Positions 1 to 55,870 of a DNA stretch of 55,870 nucleotides are shown piece by piece. This DNA comes from a virus. Within the stretch, counting starts at the first letter, position 1, and every line of letters begins with the position of its first letter. The notes below the pieces were generated by a model. It ran no database searches. It had not been told where the DNA came from and worked only from the letters and a program-made list of their open reading frames with translations. Location of the stretch: IMG/VR virus record IMGVR_UViG_3300000059_000001, positions 1-55,870 of that record; one strand, written 5' to 3'. Both the position numbers and the translations under genes were made by a program.

Positions 1-105
1 TTACTTCAAGCAAGGCAGATGTTAGAGGTTCCTGCAAACTTAACAGGGATCTTATCCATGGAAGATGTATCGAGTTCATTTTTGGAGGGCAGATATTATC
101 TTACA
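1..105. repeat. Terminal overlap copy 1 (identical to 55766-55870)
   Basis: ttacttcaagcaaggcagatgttagagg...agatattatcttaca read at both window ends. Confidence 0.9.
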
Positions 106-7402: not shown

Positions 7403-7442
7403 GGGGTACTTGTCTAATATTTGGACAGGTACCCCATTTTTA
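7403..7442 (+). terminator. Promoter-proximal hairpin plus T-run directly upstream of 7465 (possible attenuator)
   Basis: ggggtacttgtc / gacaggtacccc stem then atttttatt; tataat at 7373-7378 upstream. Confidence 0.45.
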
Positions 7443-8002: not shown

Positions 8003-8152
8003 ATGGAAAAAATCATTGAAAAAATTATTGATGCAAGAAAGAAAATTGAAGAGTTACAAAATGATAATGAAACACGAAGCAGAGAAAAAGCTTGTGCAAT
8101 TACACATCTTGAAGAAGCAGAGATGTGGTTGCAACGAGAATTAAATAAATAG
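8003..8152 (+). CDS. 49-aa helical-hairpin protein (candidate Acb2/Tad1-hairpin-like anti-defence protein)
   Basis: AAGGAGA SD; MEKIIEKIIDARKKIEELQNDNETRSREKACAITHLEEAEMWLQRELNK; A-I-T-x-L-E-E-A-x-M-W motif recalled from small phage proteins. Confidence 0.5.
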   Translation: MEKIIEKIIDARKKIEELQNDNETRSREKACAITHLEEAEMWLQRELNK

Positions 8153-8212: not shown

Positions 8213-8557
8213 GTGAGAAAACAGATTGACATTGATATCAGAAAGCGGATAAAAGAATACATAGAAATTGTTGAATTTCTTAAGAAAGTAGGTGGCAATG
8301 AAGAATTAAAGGTGACGCAAGAATACATTTTCATCACTCGAAAAAGATTAGAACATCTCATGCAGCAATTCGGTAACTACGATATTCCGAGATCAAAATT
8401 GCAAATCTGGAAGAAATTACACTGGATTGAAGCACCGCCTAATCGTCTCACTAACCAAATTCGGGTAGGAGAAAAGCGTGTGCAGCGCGTTAAAATTGAC
8501 CGAAAAATTGCAGAAGAATTGATCGAATTGGGAGGGAAGGATTACAAAGAAGTCTGA
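8213..8557 (+). CDS. Hypothetical DNA-binding-like protein (114 aa)
   Basis: GTG start after GGAGGTG; LQIWKKLHWIEAPPNRLTNQIRVGEKRVQRVKI resembles the C-terminal W..KGL...G..T..V...G....C motif of the DUF927 helicase at 51011-52867. Confidence 0.5.
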   Translation: MRKQIDIDIRKRIKEYIEIVEFLKKVGGNEELKVTQEYIFITRKRLEHLMQQFGNYDIPRSKLQIWKKLHWIEAPPNRLTNQIRVGEKRVQRVKIDRKIAEELIELGGKDYKEV

Positions 8558-8686
8558 TAACTTCTATTTTTTTTTGGCTAAAAATTAGTGCTGACATCGC
8601 AAAAAACAATATTGCGAAAGTCAACGGTAGGAAAGCGTTGATATTACTGAGATAAATAACATTTTGTCTACAGGTAGAGAATAGAC

Positions 8687-8709
8687 AGCCTATTACGTAG
8701 TAATAGGCT
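8687..8709. promoter_or_regulatory. Near-perfect palindrome (10-bp arms, 3-nt spacer) in a 0.5-kb non-coding region
   Basis: agcctattac gta gtaataggct; flanked by smaller hairpins 8597-8617 and 8666-8686. Confidence 0.6.
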
Positions 8710-8794
8710 GGACAGTAATATGATGATGACATGGGTTGATGTTAAGTAGTGGCAGCGGCCTGCAAAGATTGCCAATACGTAGTGGGTTACACGT

Positions 8795-8990
8795 GGTGAG
8801 GAGAGACCGAGGAGCGAGAGCGACGAGGCGAGGGAGCCGGAGGGCGACCGAGGGGTGGCGACCAGGATGGGAGCCAGGGAGGGTGTGGGAGGGCGACTGA
8901 GGGAGAACAGGAAAGGAGGATAGAAGAGTAGAAAATAAAATGGGAGGAGGACAGAAGTGAAATAAAAAAGAGCGAGAAGGTGAGAACAAA
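8795..8990 (+). other. Polypurine (G/A) tract with G-quadruplex-type G-runs
   Basis: By hand count about 35 pyrimidines in ~196 nt; GGG-agcca-GGG-a-GGG-tgt-GGG-a-GGG-cgactga-GGG at 8869-8903; first half strongly GC-rich. Confidence 0.8.
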
Positions 8991-9000
8991 AATTAGTTTT

Positions 9001-9036
9001 GAGAGGTGGCAGTACCACCCCTCTTCTATTTTTTTG
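9001..9036 (+). terminator. Rho-independent terminator at the end of the purine-rich region
   Basis: gagaggtgg cagta ccacccctc stem (one mismatch) followed by ttctattttttt. Confidence 0.6.
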
Positions 9037-9056
9037 ATCAGAAAGGATAATGAAAT

Positions 9057-9557
9057 ATGTACAAAAACAATATGGAAAAATATAAATGGTACGCTTTACA
9101 GTTTGGAAGATCACTTTATTTCATAAACAAATATAGTTATAAAATGCTTAATCAAGCTATGATGGTTATCGGTTTTTTGTTTTTTATTGGCATATCGGTT
9201 GCAAGTGAATACCCACTTACACTAAAAAGATTTTCATCTGTTGATTTTAATATGTTCACCTTGTATGTATTTAACATATTATTAGTTTTGTTTTTAGTAT
9301 TTATAATAATTAAGATACAGTTCCCAAGCAACACATTGAAGGTAAAGGGGGGATCTGCATATCAAATCATACATCTCATATTAGCCATATTACGTTTACA
9401 GATGGTTAGACTTCCAGGTGACATTAGTGTGCATATGTTCTCGCAATTGATGATTTGTTTTATAGCACATATTTGTTTCTATGCATTCGAACACTTCTTT
9501 CATTATTCTTGGGAAGATGGAACATACCTATCAAATGCTAGAAAGGAAGTGAATTAA
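9057..9557 (+). CDS. Multi-pass membrane protein (166 aa)
   Basis: AAAGGA SD; about four hydrophobic helices. Confidence 0.55.
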   Translation: MYKNNMEKYKWYALQFGRSLYFINKYSYKMLNQAMMVIGFLFFIGISVASEYPLTLKRFSSVDFNMFTLYVFNILLVLFLVFIIIKIQFPSNTLKVKGGSAYQIIHLILAILRLQMVRLPGDISVHMFSQLMICFIAHICFYAFEHFFHYSWEDGTYLSNARKEVN

Positions 9558-9675: not shown

Positions 9676-10353
9676 ATTAATACGACATTTGACAGACAAA
9701 ATTACGGACTTAAAAAGAATTATAAAACATCAAAGAATTATGAAAACATTAATAAACGTATCTATGATGGGGTAGGAGAATATAACATCCCAGTACTTGA
9801 GCCAGTGAGATATGAGCCATGTGAGTTTGTGGGTTTTAACTATCACAGGGTTTGTAAGGATAAGTCACAGAGAGGATTACATTTCTTTCTTGATGATTAC
9901 CAATTCATGCGACTTTGGAATAACGTAGACCGTTATCTGGACATATGTGCGCAGTATAAATACGTTTTGTCACCGGATTTTAGCCTATATGATGAATTTC
10001 CGGAGGCACTACAAATTTACAACCACTATCGCAAACATTGGATTGGGGCATACTTCCAAGAGCGTGGAATCAATATAATTCCGACTATCTCATGGAGTGG
10101 ACAACACTCATTCCGGTGGTGTTTTGATGGGGAACCGGTTGGCGGCACGGTGGCCATATCCAGTGTTGGGGTACAAAAGCATGGTTGTACAAAGGAATTA
10201 TTTTTAATGGGATATGATGAAATGTTGCGCCAGCTACAACCAGAAACAATACTCTTTTACGGAGATGTCCCAGAAGAATGTACTGGTAATATACTAAGAA
10301 TCCCGGCATATCAAGAACGATTTAGAGAGCGAAAGGAGAAAAATGGGAGGTAG
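9676..10353 (+). CDS. DUF4417-like protein, probable ATT (or ATA 9673) start
   Basis: GLHFFLDDYQF..W, SPDFSLY, NHYRKHWIGAY, IIPTISW pattern; conserved-looking GVGEYNIPVL lies upstream of GTG 9805; AAAGGAG at 9661-9667; no ATG/GTG/TTG in frame 9553-9804. Confidence 0.6.
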   Translation: MNTTFDRQNYGLKKNYKTSKNYENINKRIYDGVGEYNIPVLEPVRYEPCEFVGFNYHRVCKDKSQRGLHFFLDDYQFMRLWNNVDRYLDICAQYKYVLSPDFSLYDEFPEALQIYNHYRKHWIGAYFQERGINIIPTISWSGQHSFRWCFDGEPVGGTVAISSVGVQKHGCTKELFLMGYDEMLRQLQPETILFYGDVPEECTGNILRIPAYQERFRERKEKNGR

Positions 10354-10993
10354 AGGATCATCATACGGCATTGAGGTGATCTCTGCAAAAGGAATCTCTG
10401 CAGAACAAGGTGAGGTAATACCGCTTCATGTTGCAGGGATGACACCCACAGATCAAGGGAGTAGATTCACCAATGCCGAAAAAACATTGAAATACCTTGA
10501 GAGTAAAAAAATGGACTATGATAAGGAGCAATTACAGGTCATAGACAGACATGGTTATGTTACCAGAGCATTTCAAGGAGATGAACATTCAGTAGCTGTA
10601 GACATGGAAACCAGAAATTATATGCGTGGAAAAGTAGTAACTCACAATCATCCAGATACCTATGGTGGTACATTTTCAGATGCAGATATCAGTAGTCTGC
10701 GAATGGGAATGAAAGAACTTCGAGCCTCTGCTAAAGAGGGAAACTATTCTATGCGTGCCATGAAAGCGGCTGATCCAACAGGGCTATATAAGGCATATGA
10801 AAAGGATTCAGATAAACTACAGAATAATATGTATCAAGTGGCAAAGGATATGGCTGCACGAAACTGGGGCTCATACGAAAAGTACAGGCATGAAAATAGA
10901 AAAGCTCAATTACAAGTCATTCACTCATGGTATCAAAAAAATACTGAAAAATATGGATATCAATATTCATTCGAGCCTAGAAAGGATAATTGA
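10343..10993 (+). CDS. Hypothetical protein with JAB/MPN-like motif
   Basis: MGGRGSS N-terminus; THNHPDTYGGTFSDAD resembles the JAMM H-x-H-x7-S-x2-D motif, with one extra spacer residue. Confidence 0.4.
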   Translation: MGGRGSSYGIEVISAKGISAEQGEVIPLHVAGMTPTDQGSRFTNAEKTLKYLESKKMDYDKEQLQVIDRHGYVTRAFQGDEHSVAVDMETRNYMRGKVVTHNHPDTYGGTFSDADISSLRMGMKELRASAKEGNYSMRAMKAADPTGLYKAYEKDSDKLQNNMYQVAKDMAARNWGSYEKYRHENRKAQLQVIHSWYQKNTEKYGYQYSFEPRKDN

Positions 10994-11146: not shown

Positions 11147-11311
11147 ATGTTGTGGTTGGCGGTTTCTCCGGATCGATATGAATTACCATATGCGGTAGAG
11201 GATAGCCGAGAATCATTAGCAAAATTATTTCATGTTTCGGAAGATGAATTATTTAAGGCAACTAATAATTATCGCATCATCACAGTGGAGGTGGAAGACG
11301 ACGGAGAATGA
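11147..11311 (+). CDS. Small hypothetical protein (54 aa)
   Basis: GAAGGGGGG SD; stop overlaps the next ATG (ATGA). Confidence 0.5.
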   Translation: MLWLAVSPDRYELPYAVEDSRESLAKLFHVSEDELFKATNNYRIITVEVEDDGE

Positions 11312-12138
11312 AATATGATATCTTACTGCCATTCAAAGACTATTTGCACAAGGAATTTAGCGAAAAGACAGCTAAAAAATATTATTCTCTGGTGGATCGA
11401 GCTTTTAAAGATATGGAAATTAACAGTTTAAAAGATATCGAACCAGAATATATAAAACAATACATGGCGGGGATACGAACCAAGAATGAATTTTCAGCTA
11501 CAAAACAAGGGCTGATGAAACTTAATGAATTCGATCCCTGTTTTCGTTTGCCTGAAAAAGAATTTTTCAGAAAGGAGACAAGGAAAAGGGGGAATAAGCC
11601 ACTGAATCAAGGCGAAGAAATACATCGCGATACTATTATGCGGAAAATAAATAGGGTTAGCAATCCTGATTTACGCCTTGCCTATCGGTTGGCTATGGTA
11701 TCAGGGCTAAGAGTTTCGGAACTGGCAGATTTAAGAGCTACTGATGTAAACATGACAGATGAGCAATTAAAAGTTTTTGTCCGGAATGGGAAAGGAGGGA
11801 AGAGTGGAATAGTCATCTGCCTGAATGATGATTATGTCAAAAATAGGCTAGAGAAATTGTTAAAAAGAAAGGGGGCTGATGAAAGATTGTTTTATTCCAT
11901 TAGCCACATGATGAATGAAGCTAACAGATTAGGCTTTGAATGTCATGATCTCCGACGTATCTTTGCACAAGATTTGGAAAAAGACTTAAAACAACGAGGG
12001 AAAACTAGAAGGGAGGCTGATAAAGAGGTACAAATGGCACTGAGACACAATAAAATGAAAACATCCCAAATCTACTTGAAAGGGAAAAAGGTAATCTATG
12101 GTCAAATGGAAGGAGGGGCAGGAATAAATAAAAAATAA
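11308..12138 (+). CDS. Tyrosine recombinase-fold protein (resolvase or TcpM-like atypical relaxase candidate)
   Basis: GLRVSELADL, HDLRRIFA, LRHNKMKTSQIYL (R..HxxR..H..Y pattern); lies directly upstream of the FtsK-like coupling gene. Confidence 0.7.
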   Translation: MKYDILLPFKDYLHKEFSEKTAKKYYSLVDRAFKDMEINSLKDIEPEYIKQYMAGIRTKNEFSATKQGLMKLNEFDPCFRLPEKEFFRKETRKRGNKPLNQGEEIHRDTIMRKINRVSNPDLRLAYRLAMVSGLRVSELADLRATDVNMTDEQLKVFVRNGKGGKSGIVICLNDDYVKNRLEKLLKRKGADERLFYSISHMMNEANRLGFECHDLRRIFAQDLEKDLKQRGKTRREADKEVQMALRHNKMKTSQIYLKGKKVIYGQMEGGAGINKK

Positions 12139-12175: not shown

Positions 12176-13738
12176 ATGCTTATCGGTGTTTTTAAATTGG
12201 TAAAATGTGTTTTCAAGGGGTTAAGGGTGCTTAGAGGGTGGTTGGTTGCTGGCTTTGGGATATCTGCAATGTGCTCCATAGCCGCTTATAGTCTAAAAGA
12301 TACATATTATCAGGCGATCAAGGACCTAAATGCTCCCGCATGGGTAGAGTCCATAGGATATTTTTTGTTGCTGTTAATCCCCATCTGGTATTTGATGGCG
12401 ATTGGATTGGCGCAGGAAATGGCACAAGCTGAGTGCCAGAAACAGTTTGAAGCGGTTGGATTTAAGTCCAGAGATGGCAGATTTCCATATCTGGTGAAAA
12501 AAGTCAAGGACAAAAATGGGTTGAAAAAGTCAAAGAAATACAAGGAATTGTATATTTTTAAGTCCAACATACCTCTGACAGAGTGGATTGGAGCAAAAGA
12601 GCGGATTGAGACAGCGATTGATCGCAATATCATACGTTTCTCGGAAGGTGGCAATAAAAAAATATGCCAGATTACTACCGTTCCGCCCGAATGTAAGATT
12701 CCGGACAAGATCAATTGGGATGATGATAAGCTGCAAGATAAAGACGGTGTAGTAATTGTAGGAGAAGGAGCACTTGAAAAACTTACATTTGATCTAAATC
12801 GTACCCCTCACGTCTTAGCCGCCGGAGAGACTGGTTCCGGTAAATCTGTTATTTTAAGGTCTATTTTGTGGCAGTTGATCAGCAAAGGCGCCAGAGTGTA
12901 CATGATTGACTTTAAAGGAGGAGTCGAATTTGGTATCCGCTATGAAAAATATGGCGAAGTCATTACAGAACGACAGAGGGCAGTTGAGGTTCTCACTGAG
13001 CTTTGTGAGGAAAACCAAAAACGATTAGCCTTATTTAGACAAATGGAAGCAAAGAATTTGCCAGAATACAACCGAAAAACCGGAAAAAACCTTTGCAGGA
13101 TTGGTGTTTTCTGCGATGAAATAGCAGAAATGTTAGATAAAAAAGGAGCAATCAAAAAGGATAAAGAGATTATGGAGCAATTAGAGGGCTTAATATCCAG
13201 TCTTGCCAGATTATCTAGGGCAACCGGCATAAACCTGTTTTTGGGTGTCCAGCGTCCTGATGCAAATGTACTCACAGGTCAAATAAAAAACAATGTTCCG
13301 GTTCGTATTTGCGGCCGCTTTGCTGATAAATCGGCATCTGAAATAGTTCTGGGCAATACGGATGCAGTATATCTACCAGAGATCAAGGGGCGGTTTTTAT
13401 TTCGACTGGGGAATGTCACTGAAGAGTTCCAGGCCTACTATTTCGATGACGACTTGCATCTGCATGGTGATGTTCCAGAGGTCGGTCAAATGCTTCTGTA
13501 CCCAGAGCAAGAAGAAAAAGAGAAAATTGAGTGGATACCGATCAATGCAGACCCTGAAGGTGAAGAAGGGGATGATAAAGATCACATAAAAGAGGTTGAC
13601 TCTTTTGCATTTGCAGAAATATCTGAAGGAAGTGATGTAGAAGAGACAGAGAAAATGACTGAAACAACGGTAAAACCTGAAACTCAAGCAGATTCACTTG
13701 ATGATGCTCGATTTACGTGGAGCTGCGAAGAAAAATGA
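12176..13738 (+). CDS. FtsK/SpoIIIE-family conjugative coupling ATPase (TcpA / Tn916 Orf21-like)
   Basis: N-terminal TM helices; Walker A AGETGSGKS; Walker B VFCDEIAEM; RICGRF arginine region; acidic tail; start uncertain. Confidence 0.85.
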   Translation: MLIGVFKLVKCVFKGLRVLRGWLVAGFGISAMCSIAAYSLKDTYYQAIKDLNAPAWVESIGYFLLLLIPIWYLMAIGLAQEMAQAECQKQFEAVGFKSRDGRFPYLVKKVKDKNGLKKSKKYKELYIFKSNIPLTEWIGAKERIETAIDRNIIRFSEGGNKKICQITTVPPECKIPDKINWDDDKLQDKDGVVIVGEGALEKLTFDLNRTPHVLAAGETGSGKSVILRSILWQLISKGARVYMIDFKGGVEFGIRYEKYGEVITERQRAVEVLTELCEENQKRLALFRQMEAKNLPEYNRKTGKNLCRIGVFCDEIAEMLDKKGAIKKDKEIMEQLEGLISSLARLSRATGINLFLGVQRPDANVLTGQIKNNVPVRICGRFADKSASEIVLGNTDAVYLPEIKGRFLFRLGNVTEEFQAYYFDDDLHLHGDVPEVGQMLLYPEQEEKEKIEWIPINADPEGEEGDDKDHIKEVDSFAFAEISEGSDVEETEKMTETTVKPETQADSLDDARFTWSCEEK

Positions 13739-15512: not shown

Positions 15513-17988
15513 ATGCCCAATAAATTATTATCACAACAATCTAGTCTTTAACGCAGACAAGAGTTGCTGGGCAATATTTAAGATACAAGGGGACAATTAT
15601 GAGTTTTTGAGCGAGGCCGGAAAACGGGAACTGAACTGGAGACTCGCCAATTATTTAGGAGGTATTACCTCCGATGCACAGTTACATATCATACCAGTCG
15701 AGCAGGATATTGATGCTCACTATGATAGTATTGTTAATAATTTGGATAAAGCCGACCCTTTATATCCACGTTCTGAGCCGCTTTTCCAGAAACAGCGTAA
15801 TTACTTAAAAAGTAGCATCCAATCAAAAGCAGAAGTAAATGACTATACAAATTACATCTATGTAAAGTTGCAGATGTCAGCTAACCAGCTCGACGTCATG
15901 AAAGAAGCATTTTCATACTTTGTCAAAGATCCAATAAATGCGGTTCACTCATGGCTCAATCTGGACACCAGAGATATTTTGGAATCCAAAATCGAAGAAT
16001 ATCAACACTTGGCAAATGGGTGGCTGGAACAGCAAAGTGAACTTTTGTGCATGACACGAGCGACGGCCAAAGAAACACAGTGGTTGATCAAGCGTGCTGC
16101 TTACAGGGGCATGCCGGAAAATAAAATCAATCTCCTATATGATGACACCGATAAGAAGAACATATGGCAGCCGAAAGCTGAGCTAGAAGATGGTGTATTA
16201 CACCCCCAAAAGTCAATTGTAAATCTCTTTGAGGGGAAAATCACGCCAAAGAACCGATATTTAGAAGTTGAGACAGAAGAGGGCTTATCCTACCAGAGTT
16301 TTATGGTAATGTCGCATTTTCCAGATGAAATCCGAAATCCTGGGCGAGAATGGATTTATAAATTGCTACAAAAGGATGTCAAACCTGAAATCTGCATTCA
16401 TTTCGAAGCAATTGACCCAGAGCGGTCCCTAAAAAAAGTGGAAGGAAAACAGCAGGAGATTGAAAGCCAGACAGAGCATGTCAGAGAGGCCGGCGCACGA
16501 GTTCCAAAGGATCTTAAAGAAGGACTAATGGACGGAATGCAACTCGAAAATGAACTGCGCAACAACCGTGAGCCATTGCTGGTGTCTACCATACAATTTT
16601 GTGTGGCATCCCAAGATAAGGATGACATGCAATCAAGAAGTAAAAAACTTATAAACTTTTTTAAAATGTGGCAATTTGCAGTTGAGCGGCCTGTGGCTGA
16701 TCAGAGCAAATTGTTTTTTAATTTTATCCCATCAGTGACCAATATGGTCAAAGGATATGCTATGCCACTCACGCCACTTGCTGCGGCGAGTGGCATTTTT
16801 AGTACCACACACAACGTTGGGGATTCTAAGGGTCCATATATCGGGACTTTTGGCATGAAAAAGGTATTTTTAGATTTAGCACAAGCTTGTCTTGAAAATA
16901 TGTCAGCTGCGGCAAGTTTTTTCGGCAATCTTGGTGTTGGGAAGTCATACAATGCCAATCTATTGACCATACTGGCGGTACTTAATGGTGCTTCTGGACT
17001 AATAATCGATCCTAAGGGTGAGAGGTCTCACTGGGTAGAAAAATTTGAGTTATTAAAGGGGCATATAAATTTGATCAATATCGGAACTGAAAAAGAAAAT
17101 CGAGGAGTATTAGACCCATACAACATCTATCCAGATGACCTTGAGACAGCCACAGAATTGCTAATTAATATTGTAATTGAGCTTTGCAAGATTGAGTACG
17201 GATCTGAAACATACATTGTGCTCAAAGAGGCGGCAACTAAAGTCAAAAACGGTATTAAAAAACCTTGTATGTACAGTTTAACGGAATACCTGGATGAATG
17301 GGATGAGAAGGATGATGACTATTTTGGTGTAGCGCAGAAACTGGCAAGATTAATCCGCGTTGAAAAAGAAGTTGGCATGGGACAATTAATCTATGGTCAA
17401 GGTGATGAAAAGACAATTAACCTTGACAATCGGTTAAATATAATCCAGATTCAAAATCTCAAAATGCCGGAAAAAGATACACAAAAAGAAGATTATACAT
17501 CAGAGGAGGTCATGTCTTCTGTAATTATTATGATTCTTTCACAGTTTGCCAAGAAATTTGCACTGAAAAACAAAGATAAAATGGAAAAAATATTCCAGGT
17601 TATTTTGTTTGATGAGTCATGGATGCTTGGAAAAACCAAGCAAGGACAAAACATGTATAACTTTTTGGTGCGTATGGGGCGGTCCATGTTCACAGCCCCT
17701 ATATTTAATGGTCACTCTGTAACGGATATCAGTGATGTTGGGGTGCGTAATGGTATTACATACAGATTCTGTTTCCGCACAAACGATGATGATGAGGCCG
17801 AGCGTATGCTTCAATATTTAGGCATGGAGATTTCTCCTAAAAATATCAATTTGATGAAATCCCTACCTAATGCAACATGCATGTTCAGAGATAAGGATGG
17901 TCGAGTTGGCAAATTACATTTTGATGTAGTTTTCAAGGAGCTGCATGATATACTTTCAACCACACCTAAACAAAAGGGGGCCGCTTAA
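15499..17988 (+). CDS. VirB4-like T4SS ATPase (TcpF / Tn916 Orf16-like)
   Basis: 829 aa; Walker A GNLGVGKS; Walker B VILFDESW; position after the TcpE-like gene. Confidence 0.85.
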   Translation: MRLFKCPINYYHNNLVFNADKSCWAIFKIQGDNYEFLSEAGKRELNWRLANYLGGITSDAQLHIIPVEQDIDAHYDSIVNNLDKADPLYPRSEPLFQKQRNYLKSSIQSKAEVNDYTNYIYVKLQMSANQLDVMKEAFSYFVKDPINAVHSWLNLDTRDILESKIEEYQHLANGWLEQQSELLCMTRATAKETQWLIKRAAYRGMPENKINLLYDDTDKKNIWQPKAELEDGVLHPQKSIVNLFEGKITPKNRYLEVETEEGLSYQSFMVMSHFPDEIRNPGREWIYKLLQKDVKPEICIHFEAIDPERSLKKVEGKQQEIESQTEHVREAGARVPKDLKEGLMDGMQLENELRNNREPLLVSTIQFCVASQDKDDMQSRSKKLINFFKMWQFAVERPVADQSKLFFNFIPSVTNMVKGYAMPLTPLAAASGIFSTTHNVGDSKGPYIGTFGMKKVFLDLAQACLENMSAAASFFGNLGVGKSYNANLLTILAVLNGASGLIIDPKGERSHWVEKFELLKGHINLINIGTEKENRGVLDPYNIYPDDLETATELLINIVIELCKIEYGSETYIVLKEAATKVKNGIKKPCMYSLTEYLDEWDEKDDDYFGVAQKLARLIRVEKEVGMGQLIYGQGDEKTINLDNRLNIIQIQNLKMPEKDTQKEDYTSEEVMSSVIIMILSQFAKKFALKNKDKMEKIFQVILFDESWMLGKTKQGQNMYNFLVRMGRSMFTAPIFNGHSVTDISDVGVRNGITYRFCFRTNDDDEAERMLQYLGMEISPKNINLMKSLPNATCMFRDKDGRVGKLHFDVVFKELHDILSTTPKQKGAA

Positions 17989-55624: not shown

Positions 55625-55870
55625 ATGGGATTAACAGAAAATCAAATGAGTTTGATAAAGAGCGTATCGCAAAATGATATGACAACAGCTAGAGAAATGG
55701 CAGTTAAGTGCTTAGAAGCGGATACTACAGCTAAGAACAGTAGGTTTTGTAGTCACTACAAGGATTTACTTCAAGCAAGGCAGATGTTAGAGGTTCCTGC
55801 AAACTTAACAGGGATCTTATCCATGGAAGATGTATCGAGTTCATTTTTGGAGGGCAGATATTATCTTACA
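55625..55870 (+). CDS. AAA+ ATPase, N-terminal part (continues at base 106 of the window on the circle)
   Basis: AGGGGG SD, ATG 55625; 55766 minus 55625 is 141 nt, so it is in phase with the ORF open from base 1. Confidence 0.8.
   Translation, partial: MGLTENQMSLIKSVSQNDMTTAREMAVKCLEADTTAKNSRFCSHYKDLLQARQMLEVPANLTGILSMEDVSSSFLEGRYYLT
55766..55870. repeat. Terminal overlap copy 2 (identical to 1-105)
   Basis: Same 105 nt as the window start. Confidence 0.9.

What the first reader, a model, noticed from the sequence alone, without database searches (positions are those of the whole stretch)
8795..9036. ~200-nt polypurine, G-run-rich tract ending in a terminator, with no credible ORF
The plus strand here is roughly four-fifths G/A by hand count. 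Its first half is far more GC-rich than the plasmid. It contains imperfect repeats (gggagccNg.agg..gggcgacYgaggg) and six GGG runs with 1-7 nt loops at 8869-8903, a canonical G-quadruplex pattern. It ends in a hairpin plus T-run (9001-9036) just before the SD of 9057. A purine-only strand cannot self-pair. Options include a G4 or R-loop-forming leader, an H-DNA/triplex element, a single-strand DNA signal during transfer, or a protein-sponge RNA. I know of no described element of this kind.
Basis: seen in the sequence. Interest (0 to 1): 0.7.

Follow-up and report, generated by a model that had tools for sequence, protein, structure and literature searches.

The report
Purine-rich spacer beside a plasmid transfer origin
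The G-rich, almost pyrimidine-free stretch is real; it sits directly next to the origin of transfer of a pCW3-like conjugative plasmid and is most likely an untranslated leader ending in a terminator, so it is an unusual variant of known arrangements rather than a new kind of element.

Summary
Window 8795-9000 is 80% purine and 8795-8905 is 72% GC in a 36% GC circular plasmid. It carries the window's only canonical G4 motif and ends in a + strand intrinsic terminator just before the SD of ORF 9057. No gene is called there.

ORF 8213-8557 is a TcpK-family oriT-binding protein. Positions 8588-8735 match the pCW3-type oriT layout: repeat boxes, a conserved GA(T/G)AATAG core, and a perfect palindrome with a GTA loop whose stem varies in a compensated way across five lineages. 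TcpM and TcpA homologues lie downstream. The tract is therefore the spacer between oriT and the first transfer-side gene.

In four related lineages the same position is G-rich and C-poor, but with little conserved sequence, no canonical G4 and no terminator; it runs straight into the next gene's SD. In two other clades, including pCW3, the position holds hairpins that fold better on the + strand.

Best reading (about 0.4): a transcribed, purine-loaded, poorly structured leader, poor in Rho-loading sites, closed by an attenuating or insulating terminator. Main rival (about 0.25): a DNA-level G-rich signal for the coupling protein, as reported for plasmid pIGRK. Function is unproven. Interest is moderate.

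The parts
8213..8557 (+). tcpK homologue: a TcpK-family winged-helix oriT-binding protein, 114 aa
   Evidence: NCBIfam NF052334 scores 65.8 bits against a cutoff of 45. A profile of the family hits PDB 5vfx TcpK at E 2.5e-13.
8549..8575 (+). Weak terminator-like hairpin (AGAAGT/ACTTCT) plus a T9 run straight after tcpK. Its tail CTTCTATTTTTTT is identical to 9023-9035.
   Evidence: Read from the sequence; 13-nt direct repeat D5.
8588..8735 (.). Putative oriT core region. It holds box GTGCTGACA (8588-8596), a degenerate copy at 8724-8732, the conserved core GAGAATAG (8677-8684) and a perfect palindrome (8686-8710).
   Evidence: The block is conserved in relatives. Relatives carry 5 clustered GCTGACA/TGTCAGC boxes. 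The layout matches the pCW3 oriT. The ssDNA fold of 8575-8800 gives z -5.1.
8686..8710 (.). Perfect 11-bp-arm palindrome with a GTA loop (CAGCCTATTAC GTA GTAATAGGCTG)
   Evidence: Five lineages have different stems that all stay perfectly paired. The GTA loop and the upstream GA(T/G)AATAG are invariant (also L054).
8751..8757 (+). GGCAGCG word, found 37-47 nt after the hairpin in all five G-rich lineages
   Evidence: The background frequency of GGCAGC is 0.16-1.2 per kb.
8795..8905 (+). G-run-rich half of the tract (72% GC, 56% G, 5% T), including the G4 motif at 8869-8903 and the imperfect 25-mer repeat
   Evidence: R-loop-forming criteria of the QmRLFS type are met only here in the window.
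8906..9000 (+). A/G-rich half (82% purine, 35% GC) with SD-like motifs (GAAAGGAGG at 8911-8919, GGGAGGAGGA at 8942-8951) and no credible ORF
9001..9036 (+). Intrinsic terminator: an 8-bp stem with one mismatch, a 5-nt loop and a U-rich tail. It works on the + strand only.
   Evidence: Hairpin energy is -11.7 kcal/mol.
9042..9557 (+). SD (9042-9047) and a 166-aa ORF, membrane-like by its hydrophobic sequence, with no family match. This slot holds different cargo genes in relatives.
   Evidence: Relatives carry PemK, a 57-aa ORF, a 118-aa ORF, or nothing at this position.
11308..12138 (+). tcpM homologue: a tyrosine-recombinase-like relaxase
   Evidence: 35% identity over 151 aa to pCW3 TcpM, E 2e-27. 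Pfam Phage_integrase.
12176..13738 (+). tcpA homologue: an FtsK/SpoIIIE-type coupling protein. TcpC, TcpE and a VirB4-like ATPase follow.

Best explanation
The tract is the non-coding spacer between the origin of transfer of a pCW3-like (TcpK/TcpM/TcpA) circular conjugative plasmid and the first gene on the transfer side.

It is most likely transcribed rightward, on the + strand, as an untranslated leader. Transcription would come either from read-through of the weak tcpK terminator across oriT, or from an unrecognised oriT-associated promoter.

With no coding constraint, the sense strand has been driven to extreme purine loading. The resulting RNA is poorly structured for its GC content. It has very few YC dinucleotides on which Rho could load. 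It is full of SD-like GGAGG words.

The intrinsic terminator at 9001-9036 lies 6 nt before the SD of ORF 9057. It would then attenuate or insulate the downstream transfer-side genes from transcription crossing oriT. This mirrors the terminator-before-first-gene arrangement described for other Gram-positive conjugation operons.

Shown here: the composition, the oriT context, the terminator, the absence of genes, the position-specific G-richness in relatives, and the + strand bias of structure in hairpin-type relatives.

Inferred: transcription itself, Rho avoidance, ribosome binding, and attenuation.
For: Context: TcpK homologue, oriT-like block, and TcpM/TcpA homologues.

The terminator works only on the + strand and sits immediately before an SD. 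No sigma-70-like + strand promoter is predicted between it and ORF 9057, so expression of 9057 needs read-through.

In L006, L013 and L007 the G-rich stretch runs without a terminator straight into the SD and ATG of the next gene, as a 5' UTR would.

The position is G-rich and C-poor for 200-250 nt in five lineages, whatever the genome GC.

In the L015 clade the same position holds hairpins with compensatory changes. Their consensus energy is -59.0 kcal/mol on the + strand and -43.6 on the minus strand. pCW3-type plasmids have three hairpins that are 5-10 kcal/mol better on the + strand. In L053 the three hairpins are kept although their sequence is entirely different.

The + strand tract has 5 YC dinucleotides per 200 nt against a mean of 14.9. 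Tract MFE is -33.6 against -63.5 for GC-matched symmetric sequence.

Precedents: the 456-nt pLS20 leader with its attenuator, and terminators close upstream of the first gene in many of the 423 other Gram-positive plasmids screened, 339 of which have a predicted terminator within 500 bp upstream (PMC13401043); the Tn916 insulating terminator T1 (PMC11658703).
Against: There are no transcript data and no recognisable + strand promoter in 8575-8800.

The terminator is present only in this plasmid, not in relatives.

Complementarity between the tract and the terminator's 3' arm (-21 kcal/mol) is exactly what shuffled tracts give, at the 50th percentile. There is therefore no evidence for a designed antiterminator.

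Low YC content is not the window minimum.

The + strand bias of the relatives' hairpins fits a + ssDNA T-strand as well as it fits RNA.

A leader does not obviously need 72% GC with clustered G runs in a 36% GC plasmid.
Confidence: 0.4

Rival explanations
1. DNA-level accessory element of oriT. The G-rich + strand would be the transferred strand just 3' of the nick. It forms G4 or another G-structure when unwound, and acts as a recognition, oligomerisation or ATPase-stimulating signal for the FtsK-type coupling protein TcpA, as proposed for the G-rich oriT segment of pIGRK.
For: The tract starts 85 nt from the oriT hairpin. It holds the window's only G4 motif and its top G4Hunter score. G-run enrichment without C runs recurs at this position in L006 (top 1%), L049 (1.5%), L013 (4.8%) and pCW3 (2.6%); pCW3's plasmid-wide G4Hunter maximum also lies here. 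In pIGRK (33% GC, tyrosine-recombinase-like relaxase MobK) the G-rich oriT sequence is needed for mobilisation but not for nicking, and the authors cite binding of G4 DNA by TrwB and by FtsK-like TraB (PMC8152469; PMC7434980). The + strand bias of structure in relatives also fits a + strand T-strand.
Against: No relative has a canonical G4, even allowing 12-nt loops. The L015 clade and L053 show no G-run enrichment. By my mapping, the pCW3 minimal 151-bp oriT excludes its G-rich hairpins. The tract is about 200 nt, far more than a G4 needs. The A-rich half and the U-tailed terminator are unexplained. The transferred strand is unknown for any TcpM system.
Confidence: 0.25
2. No specific function. 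The variable cargo slot next to oriT has accumulated a spacer. General sense-strand purine bias and local duplication or slippage have pushed it to an extreme.
For: Sequence is not conserved beyond about 8810. Internal imperfect duplications occur here, and a 3 x 21-nt tandem array lies in the E. bolteae counterpart. The slot between oriT and DUF4417 holds different genes in each lineage. The whole + strand is already purine- and G-biased.
Against: The tract is an outlier for the window (3.7 sd; next best purine fraction 0.71). G-richness recurs at the same position in five lineages with backgrounds of 36-51% GC. 72% GC in a 36% GC plasmid is hard to maintain against mutation bias without selection.
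Confidence: 0.2
3. R-loop or primer element. Rightward transcription yields a purine-rich RNA that stays hybridised to the pyrimidine-rich minus strand. The hybrid either opens oriT or, if the minus strand is transferred, primes complementary-strand synthesis from the last-transferred end. This would work like an sso or like a retroviral polypurine tract.
For: R-loop-forming criteria (G-cluster initiation zone plus a >=40% G extension zone) are met only here in the window, and only on the + strand. Purine-RNA/pyrimidine-DNA hybrids are unusually stable (established knowledge). Upstream genes include orphan methylases and an Acb2/Tad1-like ORF, typical of leading regions, which would fit a minus-strand T-strand. 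A terminator could define the primer's 3' end.
Against: R-loop criteria are not met in any relative. Hairpins in related clades favour the + strand, not the minus strand. No ssDNA promoter is evident. There is no precedent at an oriT.
Confidence: 0.08
4. An independent small RNA (from about 8700 to 9036). It would act in trans as a sponge for a protein or for ribosomes, or as a relaxosome cofactor like the SGI1 sgm-sRNA.
For: A terminator lies on each side (8549-8575 and 9001-9036), which could define a separate unit. GGA and GGAGG motifs are dense. SGI1, with its tyrosine-recombinase-type relaxase MpsA, needs an RNA encoded between oriT and the relaxase gene (PMC9299015).
Against: No promoter is predicted. 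There is no Rfam match even at E<=10. No complementary target exists elsewhere in the plasmid. Relatives lack the terminator. No CsrA-, Hfq- or ProQ-like gene was seen among the ORFs scanned.
Confidence: 0.07

Closest known systems
pCW3 oriT region (tcpK - oriT - tcpM) of Clostridium perfringens Tcp plasmids
   Same: A TcpK-family gene lies directly upstream. Lineage-specific repeat boxes occur with inverted copies. A CG(T)AT(T/A)ATAG core is followed by a perfect palindrome. A comparatively GC-rich, + strand-biased spacer precedes the next gene. TcpM and TcpA lie downstream.
   Different: In pCW3 the spacer is three hairpins leading directly to tcpM. Here it is a 200-nt purine tract plus a terminator, and five cargo ORFs separate it from tcpM. 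Box sequences differ, and only one exact box copy is seen in this plasmid.
G-rich putative G4 within the minimal oriT of pIGRK (MobK, a tyrosine-recombinase-like relaxase)
   Same: A low-GC plasmid with a local G-rich segment between the oriT repeats and the downstream gene. The relaxase belongs to the same atypical class. A G4 is predicted (PMC8152469).
   Different: The pIGRK deletion that removed the putative G4 was 29 bp, inside a 186-bp minimal oriT with experimental support. Here the tract is about 200 nt, mostly outside the region homologous to the pCW3 minimal oriT, untested, and its G4 motif is not conserved in relatives.
Leader attenuators of Gram-positive conjugation operons (pLS20 cATT zipper attenuator; Tn916 T1/canT)
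   Same: A long untranslated leader before transfer genes, with an intrinsic terminator a few nucleotides upstream of the first gene's SD (PMC13401043; PMC11658703).
   Different: Those leaders are highly structured, with a long central stem and a specific antiterminator pairing. This one is nearly pyrimidine-free and shows no above-chance antiterminator complementarity. No conAn1-like gene was identified.
SGI1 sgm-sRNA
   Same: A non-coding RNA function encoded next to the oriT of an element with a tyrosine-recombinase-type relaxase (PMC9299015).
   Different: There is no sequence or structural resemblance. sgm-sRNA is processed from the 3' end of a longer transcript. Nothing here shows a discrete RNA.

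Membership tests
TcpK/TcpM-type oriT region (pCW3 family) | tcpK gene immediately upstream of oriT | tested here: met
   ORF 8213-8557 matches NF052334 above its cutoff and PDB TcpK at E 2.5e-13.
TcpK/TcpM-type oriT region (pCW3 family) | Clustered direct and inverted copies of a short TcpK box | tested here: inconclusive
   Relatives have 5 GCTGACA/TGTCAGC copies within about 210 nt. This window has one exact GTGCTGACA plus degenerate copies, and 1-mismatch matches across the window are at chance level.
TcpK/TcpM-type oriT region (pCW3 family) | Conserved core followed by a perfect palindrome inside the minimal oriT | tested here: met
   GA(T/G)AATAG plus a palindrome with a GTA loop and compensated stems in 5 lineages. 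pCW3-type plasmids have TCGTATTATAG plus a palindrome inside the mapped 151-bp oriT. Homology between the two cores is judged by eye.
TcpK/TcpM-type oriT region (pCW3 family) | TcpM relaxase and FtsK-type TcpA encoded downstream | tested here: met
TcpK/TcpM-type oriT region (pCW3 family) | Nicking and mobilisation activity | not testable with these tools
   Needs mating and nicking assays.
oriT-associated G4 element (pIGRK type) | Local G-rich segment with a predicted G4 in a low-GC plasmid, next to the oriT repeats | tested here: met
   Canonical motif at 8869-8903 and G4Hunter 1.72, both window-unique or window-maximal.
oriT-associated G4 element (pIGRK type) | Feature kept in related elements | tested here: not met
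   No canonical G4 in any relative, even with loops up to 12 nt. G-run enrichment is seen in 4 of 5 G-rich lineages and is absent in the L015 clade and L053.
oriT-associated G4 element (pIGRK type) | Required for transfer but not for nicking | not testable with these tools
   Experimental.
Zipper-type leader attenuator (cATT, pLS20) | Intrinsic terminator 0-26 nt upstream of the SD of the first gene | tested here: met
   The terminator ends at 9036 and the SD is at 9042.
Zipper-type leader attenuator (cATT, pLS20) | Long imperfect central stem-loop, extended by specific pairing of an upstream segment with the terminator | tested here: not met
   There is no long stem in a purine-only leader. 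The pairing with the terminator's 3' arm equals that of shuffled controls.
Zipper-type leader attenuator (cATT, pLS20) | Followed by the conAn1/conAn2 antitermination genes | not tested
   No dedicated search was run. ORF 9057 has no Pfam or NCBIfam match.
Described RNA families (Rfam 15) | Covariance-model match | tested here: not met
   No hit at gathering thresholds in the window. Only chance-level hits at E<=10 in 8400-9200.
R-loop-forming sequence (QmRLFS-type definition) | G-cluster initiation zone followed by >=100 nt with >=40% G on the non-template strand | tested here: met
   Two hits, both in the tract on the + strand. None elsewhere in the window and none in relatives. Actual transcription and hybrid formation are untested.

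The most novel reading that the evidence does not exclude
G-rich, strand-specific structure immediately flanking the nick region is a general requirement of oriTs served by tyrosine-recombinase-like relaxases (TcpM, MobK, MpsA). It would be read on the unwound T-strand by the coupling ATPase (here FtsK-type TcpA). This plasmid would carry an expanded polypurine/G4 version of that signal, which doubles as a transcribed leader.
Probability: 0.15. Interest if true: 0.7.

Novelty: new variant of a known kind. Interest (0 to 1): 0.4.

Why it matters
Tcp-type plasmids spread toxin and resistance genes in clostridia and, as these metagenomic relatives show, also occur in human gut metagenomes and in the gut species Enterocloster bolteae. 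How their atypical relaxase and FtsK-type coupling protein find and process oriT is still open. TcpM nicks without sequence specificity in vitro.

A strand-asymmetric G-rich flank recurs at the same position in several lineages and echoes the transfer-essential G-rich segment of pIGRK. This gives a concrete, cheap test of whether DNA structure next to the nick is part of substrate recognition.

If the tract is only a leader, it is still a clean natural example of an almost pyrimidine-free untranslated RNA. That would be useful for studying Rho avoidance, 30S binding to SD-like repeats, and insulation of transfer genes from transcription crossing oriT.

Tried and rejected
**Searches that returned nothing**
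- Rfam at gathering and permissive thresholds gave nothing meaningful.
- blastn of 8560-9060 against the phage and plasmid collections gave no match.
- No tRNA was found.
- Exact-pattern scans for the palindrome in genome, metagenome and viral collections gave 0 hits.
- A protein-guided scan of GTDB genomes gave no relatives.
- Closest relatives L003-L005 are 100% identical over the region and so carry no information.

**Explanations considered and rejected**
- Coding explanation. No gene is called in four assemblies. The + strand ORF (54 aa, TTG start) is rich in AGG/CGA/GGG codons, which I expect to be rare in a low-GC host (not measured here). The minus-strand ORFs are stop-free artefacts of a pyrimidine strand.
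- Tandem-repeat or iteron array. TRF finds only a 2.6-copy, 75%-match 10-mer.
- Replication origin. The ParA/wHTH module and the primase-zinc-finger/DUF927 helicase module lie 24-43 kb away.
- Designed antiterminator. Pairing of the tract with the terminator's 3' arm is no better than in shuffles.
- Trans-acting antisense target. No significant complementarity elsewhere in the plasmid.
- AGCGA motifs, noted in the pIGRK oriT. They occur three times here but are not consistent across relatives.
- H-DNA. Only a 17-nt interrupted mirror repeat (GGGAGGGTGTGGGAGGG) is present, which is too short and impure.

**Checks that could not be completed**
- A first fuzzy-regex scan timed out.
- pIGRK and the two JBC G4 papers, Matilla 2010 and Amado 2019, could not be fetched. 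Those points rest on citing papers.

Full report
**1.

- Window 8795-9000 is 80.1% purine (A74, G91, C22, T19).
- The first half, 8795-8905, is 72% GC. The second half, 8906-9000, is 82% purine and 35% GC. The window as a whole is 36% GC and 54% purine (profile).
- The best 200-nt purine window of the whole 55.9 kb is 8793-8992 at 0.82. That is about 3.7 sd above the mean, and the runner-up is 0.71.
- Six GGG runs at 8869-8903, with loops of 1-7 nt, form the only canonical G4 motif on either strand. G4Hunter peaks here at 1.72.
- A 25-mer is repeated imperfectly, 84% identical and 49 nt apart. There is no true tandem array.
- A + strand intrinsic terminator occupies 9001-9036. An SD follows at 9042 and the ATG of a 166-aa ORF at 9057.
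- Gene callers behind four assemblies placed no gene in 8558-9056.
- The tract is not completely unable to pair. Its few C residues give z -3.2 against dinucleotide shuffles. It is still far less structured than GC-matched sequence.

**2. What surrounds it**

The window is a metagenome contig with a 105-nt terminal overlap, so it is a circular replicon of about 55.77 kb. It carries these genes:

- partition and replication genes: ParA, a wHTH protein, and a CHC2 zinc-finger protein next to a DUF927 helicase;
- a Tcp-type conjugation set: a TcpM-like relaxase (35% identical to pCW3 TcpM, E 2e-27), FtsK-type TcpA, TcpC, TcpE, a VirB4-like ATPase, a peptidase, an LPXTG adhesin and a sortase.

The ORF immediately upstream of the finding, 8213-8557, is a TcpK-family protein. 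It scores 65.8 bits on NCBIfam NF052334 against a cutoff of 45. A profile of the family hits the TcpK crystal structure at E 2.5e-13.

In pCW3, tcpK lies directly upstream of the 150-bp oriT. That oriT begins with tandem TcpK boxes (GGAACTTTA) and contains inverted repeats (PMC6137059).

**3. The block 8588-8735 looks like that oriT**

Relatives were reached in two ways. TcpK homologues gave L006, L007-L012, L013 and L054, and an Enterocloster bolteae plasmid (L049). The conserved JAMM-motif protein gave L014-L048.

All of them (except loci too short to include the region) show the same order:

- a TcpK-like gene;
- a cluster of short boxes;
- the motif GA(T/G)AATAG;
- a perfect palindrome with a GTA loop.

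The palindrome stems differ between lineages but stay perfectly paired:

- CAGCCTATTAC
- CAGCCTATATAC
- CGGCCTATATAC
- GCTATATAAC
- GCTACAAATAT

This argues for a hairpin or cruciform under selection.

Four C. perfringens Tcp plasmid lineages show the same logic. Each has its own box sequence (GGAACTTTA, GGGGACA, GGTTACA or GTGCAAC). An inverted copy abuts a conserved TCGTATTATAG core, followed by an AT palindrome. By my mapping, all of this lies inside the experimentally defined oriT.

The finding therefore starts 85 nt beyond the oriT hairpin. It occupies the spacer between oriT and the first downstream gene.

**4. What is and is not conserved in that spacer**

- In the window, L006, L013, L007 and L049, the 200-250 nt after the hairpin carry 22-29 G and 3-10 C per 50 nt. 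Backgrounds are 36-51% GC.
- G runs are enriched and C runs absent.
- A GGCAGC word lies 37-47 nt after the hairpin in all five lineages.
- Beyond about 8810 the sequence does not align.
- No relative has a canonical G4, even with 12-nt loops, or meets R-loop-forming criteria.
- No relative has a terminator. Their G-rich stretch runs into the SD and ATG of the next gene.
- The gene after the spacer differs in every lineage: a 166-aa hydrophobic (membrane-like) protein, PemK, a 57-aa ORF, a 118-aa ORF, or none.

In the L015 clade the spacer is a pair of hairpins with compensatory changes. Their consensus energy is -59.0 kcal/mol on the + strand and -43.6 on the minus strand.

In pCW3-type plasmids the spacer is three hairpins, 5-10 kcal/mol better on the + strand. 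The three hairpins are retained with unrelated sequence in L053.

pCW3's plasmid-wide G4Hunter maximum (G6AATG6) also lies at this position.

**5. Most likely mechanism**

The features that point in one direction are:

- extreme purine loading on the sense strand;
- a terminator that works only on the + strand, placed 6 nt before an SD, with no room for a separate promoter;
- relatives in which the tract behaves as a 5' UTR;
- + strand-biased structure in the other clades.

Together these are best explained by rightward transcription across oriT into an untranslated leader.

Such an RNA would be poor in Rho-loading YC dinucleotides (5 per 200 nt against a mean of 14.9). By contrast, the antisense strand is the richest YC site in the window (74 against a mean of 23). 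The RNA would also be weakly structured and dense in SD-like words.

The terminator would attenuate or insulate the transfer-side genes. This resembles the terminator-before-first-gene arrangement of pLS20-type and many other Gram-positive conjugation operons (PMC13401043) and the Tn916 T1 insulator (PMC11658703).

Several things are missing. There are no transcript data and no promoter. I found no evidence of a specific antiterminator: pairing with the terminator's 3' arm equals that of shuffled controls. I put this reading at about 0.4.

**6. Rivals**

- **DNA-level oriT accessory signal (0.25).** pIGRK is a 33% GC plasmid with a relaxase of the same tyrosine-recombinase-like class. Its minimal oriT contains a G-rich putative G4. 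Deleting it abolishes mobilisation but not nicking, and its authors propose recognition by the coupling protein. They cite G4 binding by TrwB and by FtsK-like TraB (PMC8152469; PMC7434980). Here the coupling protein is FtsK-type TcpA. The lack of G4 conservation, the length of the tract, its A-rich half and the terminator all weigh against this.
- **No function (0.2).** The tract would be a spacer exaggerated by strand bias and duplication.
- **R-loop or primer model (0.08).** Criteria are met only in this plasmid, and the strand bias of relatives points the other way.
- **Independent sRNA (0.07).** This would resemble the SGI1 sgm-sRNA (PMC9299015).

**7. Verdict**

The finding is a real and locally extreme sequence feature. 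Its setting is now known, and two classes of precedent exist. I rate it a new variant of a known kind and of moderate interest (0.4).

The most novel reading still open is a general structural signal on the T-strand for coupling proteins in tyrosine-recombinase-type oriTs. I give it about 0.15.

Noticed in passing
window 1-105 and 55766-55870: The two ends are identical over 105 nt, so the contig is a closed circle of about 55,765 bp. ParA, wHTH and primase-zinc-finger/DUF927 helicase modules are present, which makes it a plasmid rather than an ICE fragment.
   Followed up: partly
window 8003-8152 (+): A 49-aa ORF matches the Acb2/Tad1 hairpin domain (Pfam PF24729, 34 bits against a cutoff of 27). 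It sits just upstream of tcpK, downstream of two orphan DNA methylases, a PAPS-reductase-like gene and two DUF1492 sigma-like genes. This looks like an anti-defence 'leading region'.
   Followed up: no
window 8561-8573 and 9023-9035: An identical 13-mer, CTTCTATTTTTTT, forms the tail of both the tcpK terminator and the tract terminator, bracketing oriT plus the tract (462 nt apart). It could be a duplication, gene conversion or an insertion footprint.
   Followed up: no
window 10343-10993 (+): A 216-aa protein with a JAMM-like motif (HNHPD...GGTFSDAD) has no Pfam or NCBIfam hit. It is 60-72% conserved next to DUF4417 in all relatives. No relatives were found in GTDB representative genomes.
   Followed up: partly
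window 7403-7435 and 16773-16794 (+): A strong 15-bp-stem terminator lies between the two DUF1492 sigma-like genes, and a 9-bp GC-rich terminator-like hairpin lies inside the VirB4-like ORF. Internal terminators hint at a processive antitermination system, as in pLS20 and Tn916. The overall terminator count is not above chance.
   Followed up: no
window 8795-8994, minus strand: The antisense strand of the tract has 74 YC dinucleotides per 200 nt, the maximum of the whole window (mean 23, sd 8.5). It would be an ideal Rho-loading site for any leftward transcript heading into oriT.
   Followed up: partly
L049 6050-6117 (Enterocloster bolteae plasmid NZ_CP022465.2): Three tandem copies of a 21-mer (GAGAGTAGAGTAGCAGCCTGG, 97% matches) lie inside the G-rich spacer after the oriT hairpin.
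   Followed up: no
L050-L053 (C. perfringens Tcp plasmids), between tcpK and tcpM: TcpK box sequences differ by plasmid lineage (GGAACTTTA, GGGGACA, GGTTACA, GTGCAAC). Each has an inverted copy abutting the conserved TCGTATTATAG core, which suggests co-evolution of TcpK and its box. Three hairpins before tcpM are conserved in structure but not in sequence in L053.
   Followed up: partly
window 8641-8721: A 9-bp perfect inverted repeat (ATATTACTG / CAGTAATAT) encloses the oriT palindrome and a TGTCTA/TAGACA hairpin, giving a branched ssDNA fold (z -5.1). The outer stem is not obviously kept in relatives.
   Followed up: partly
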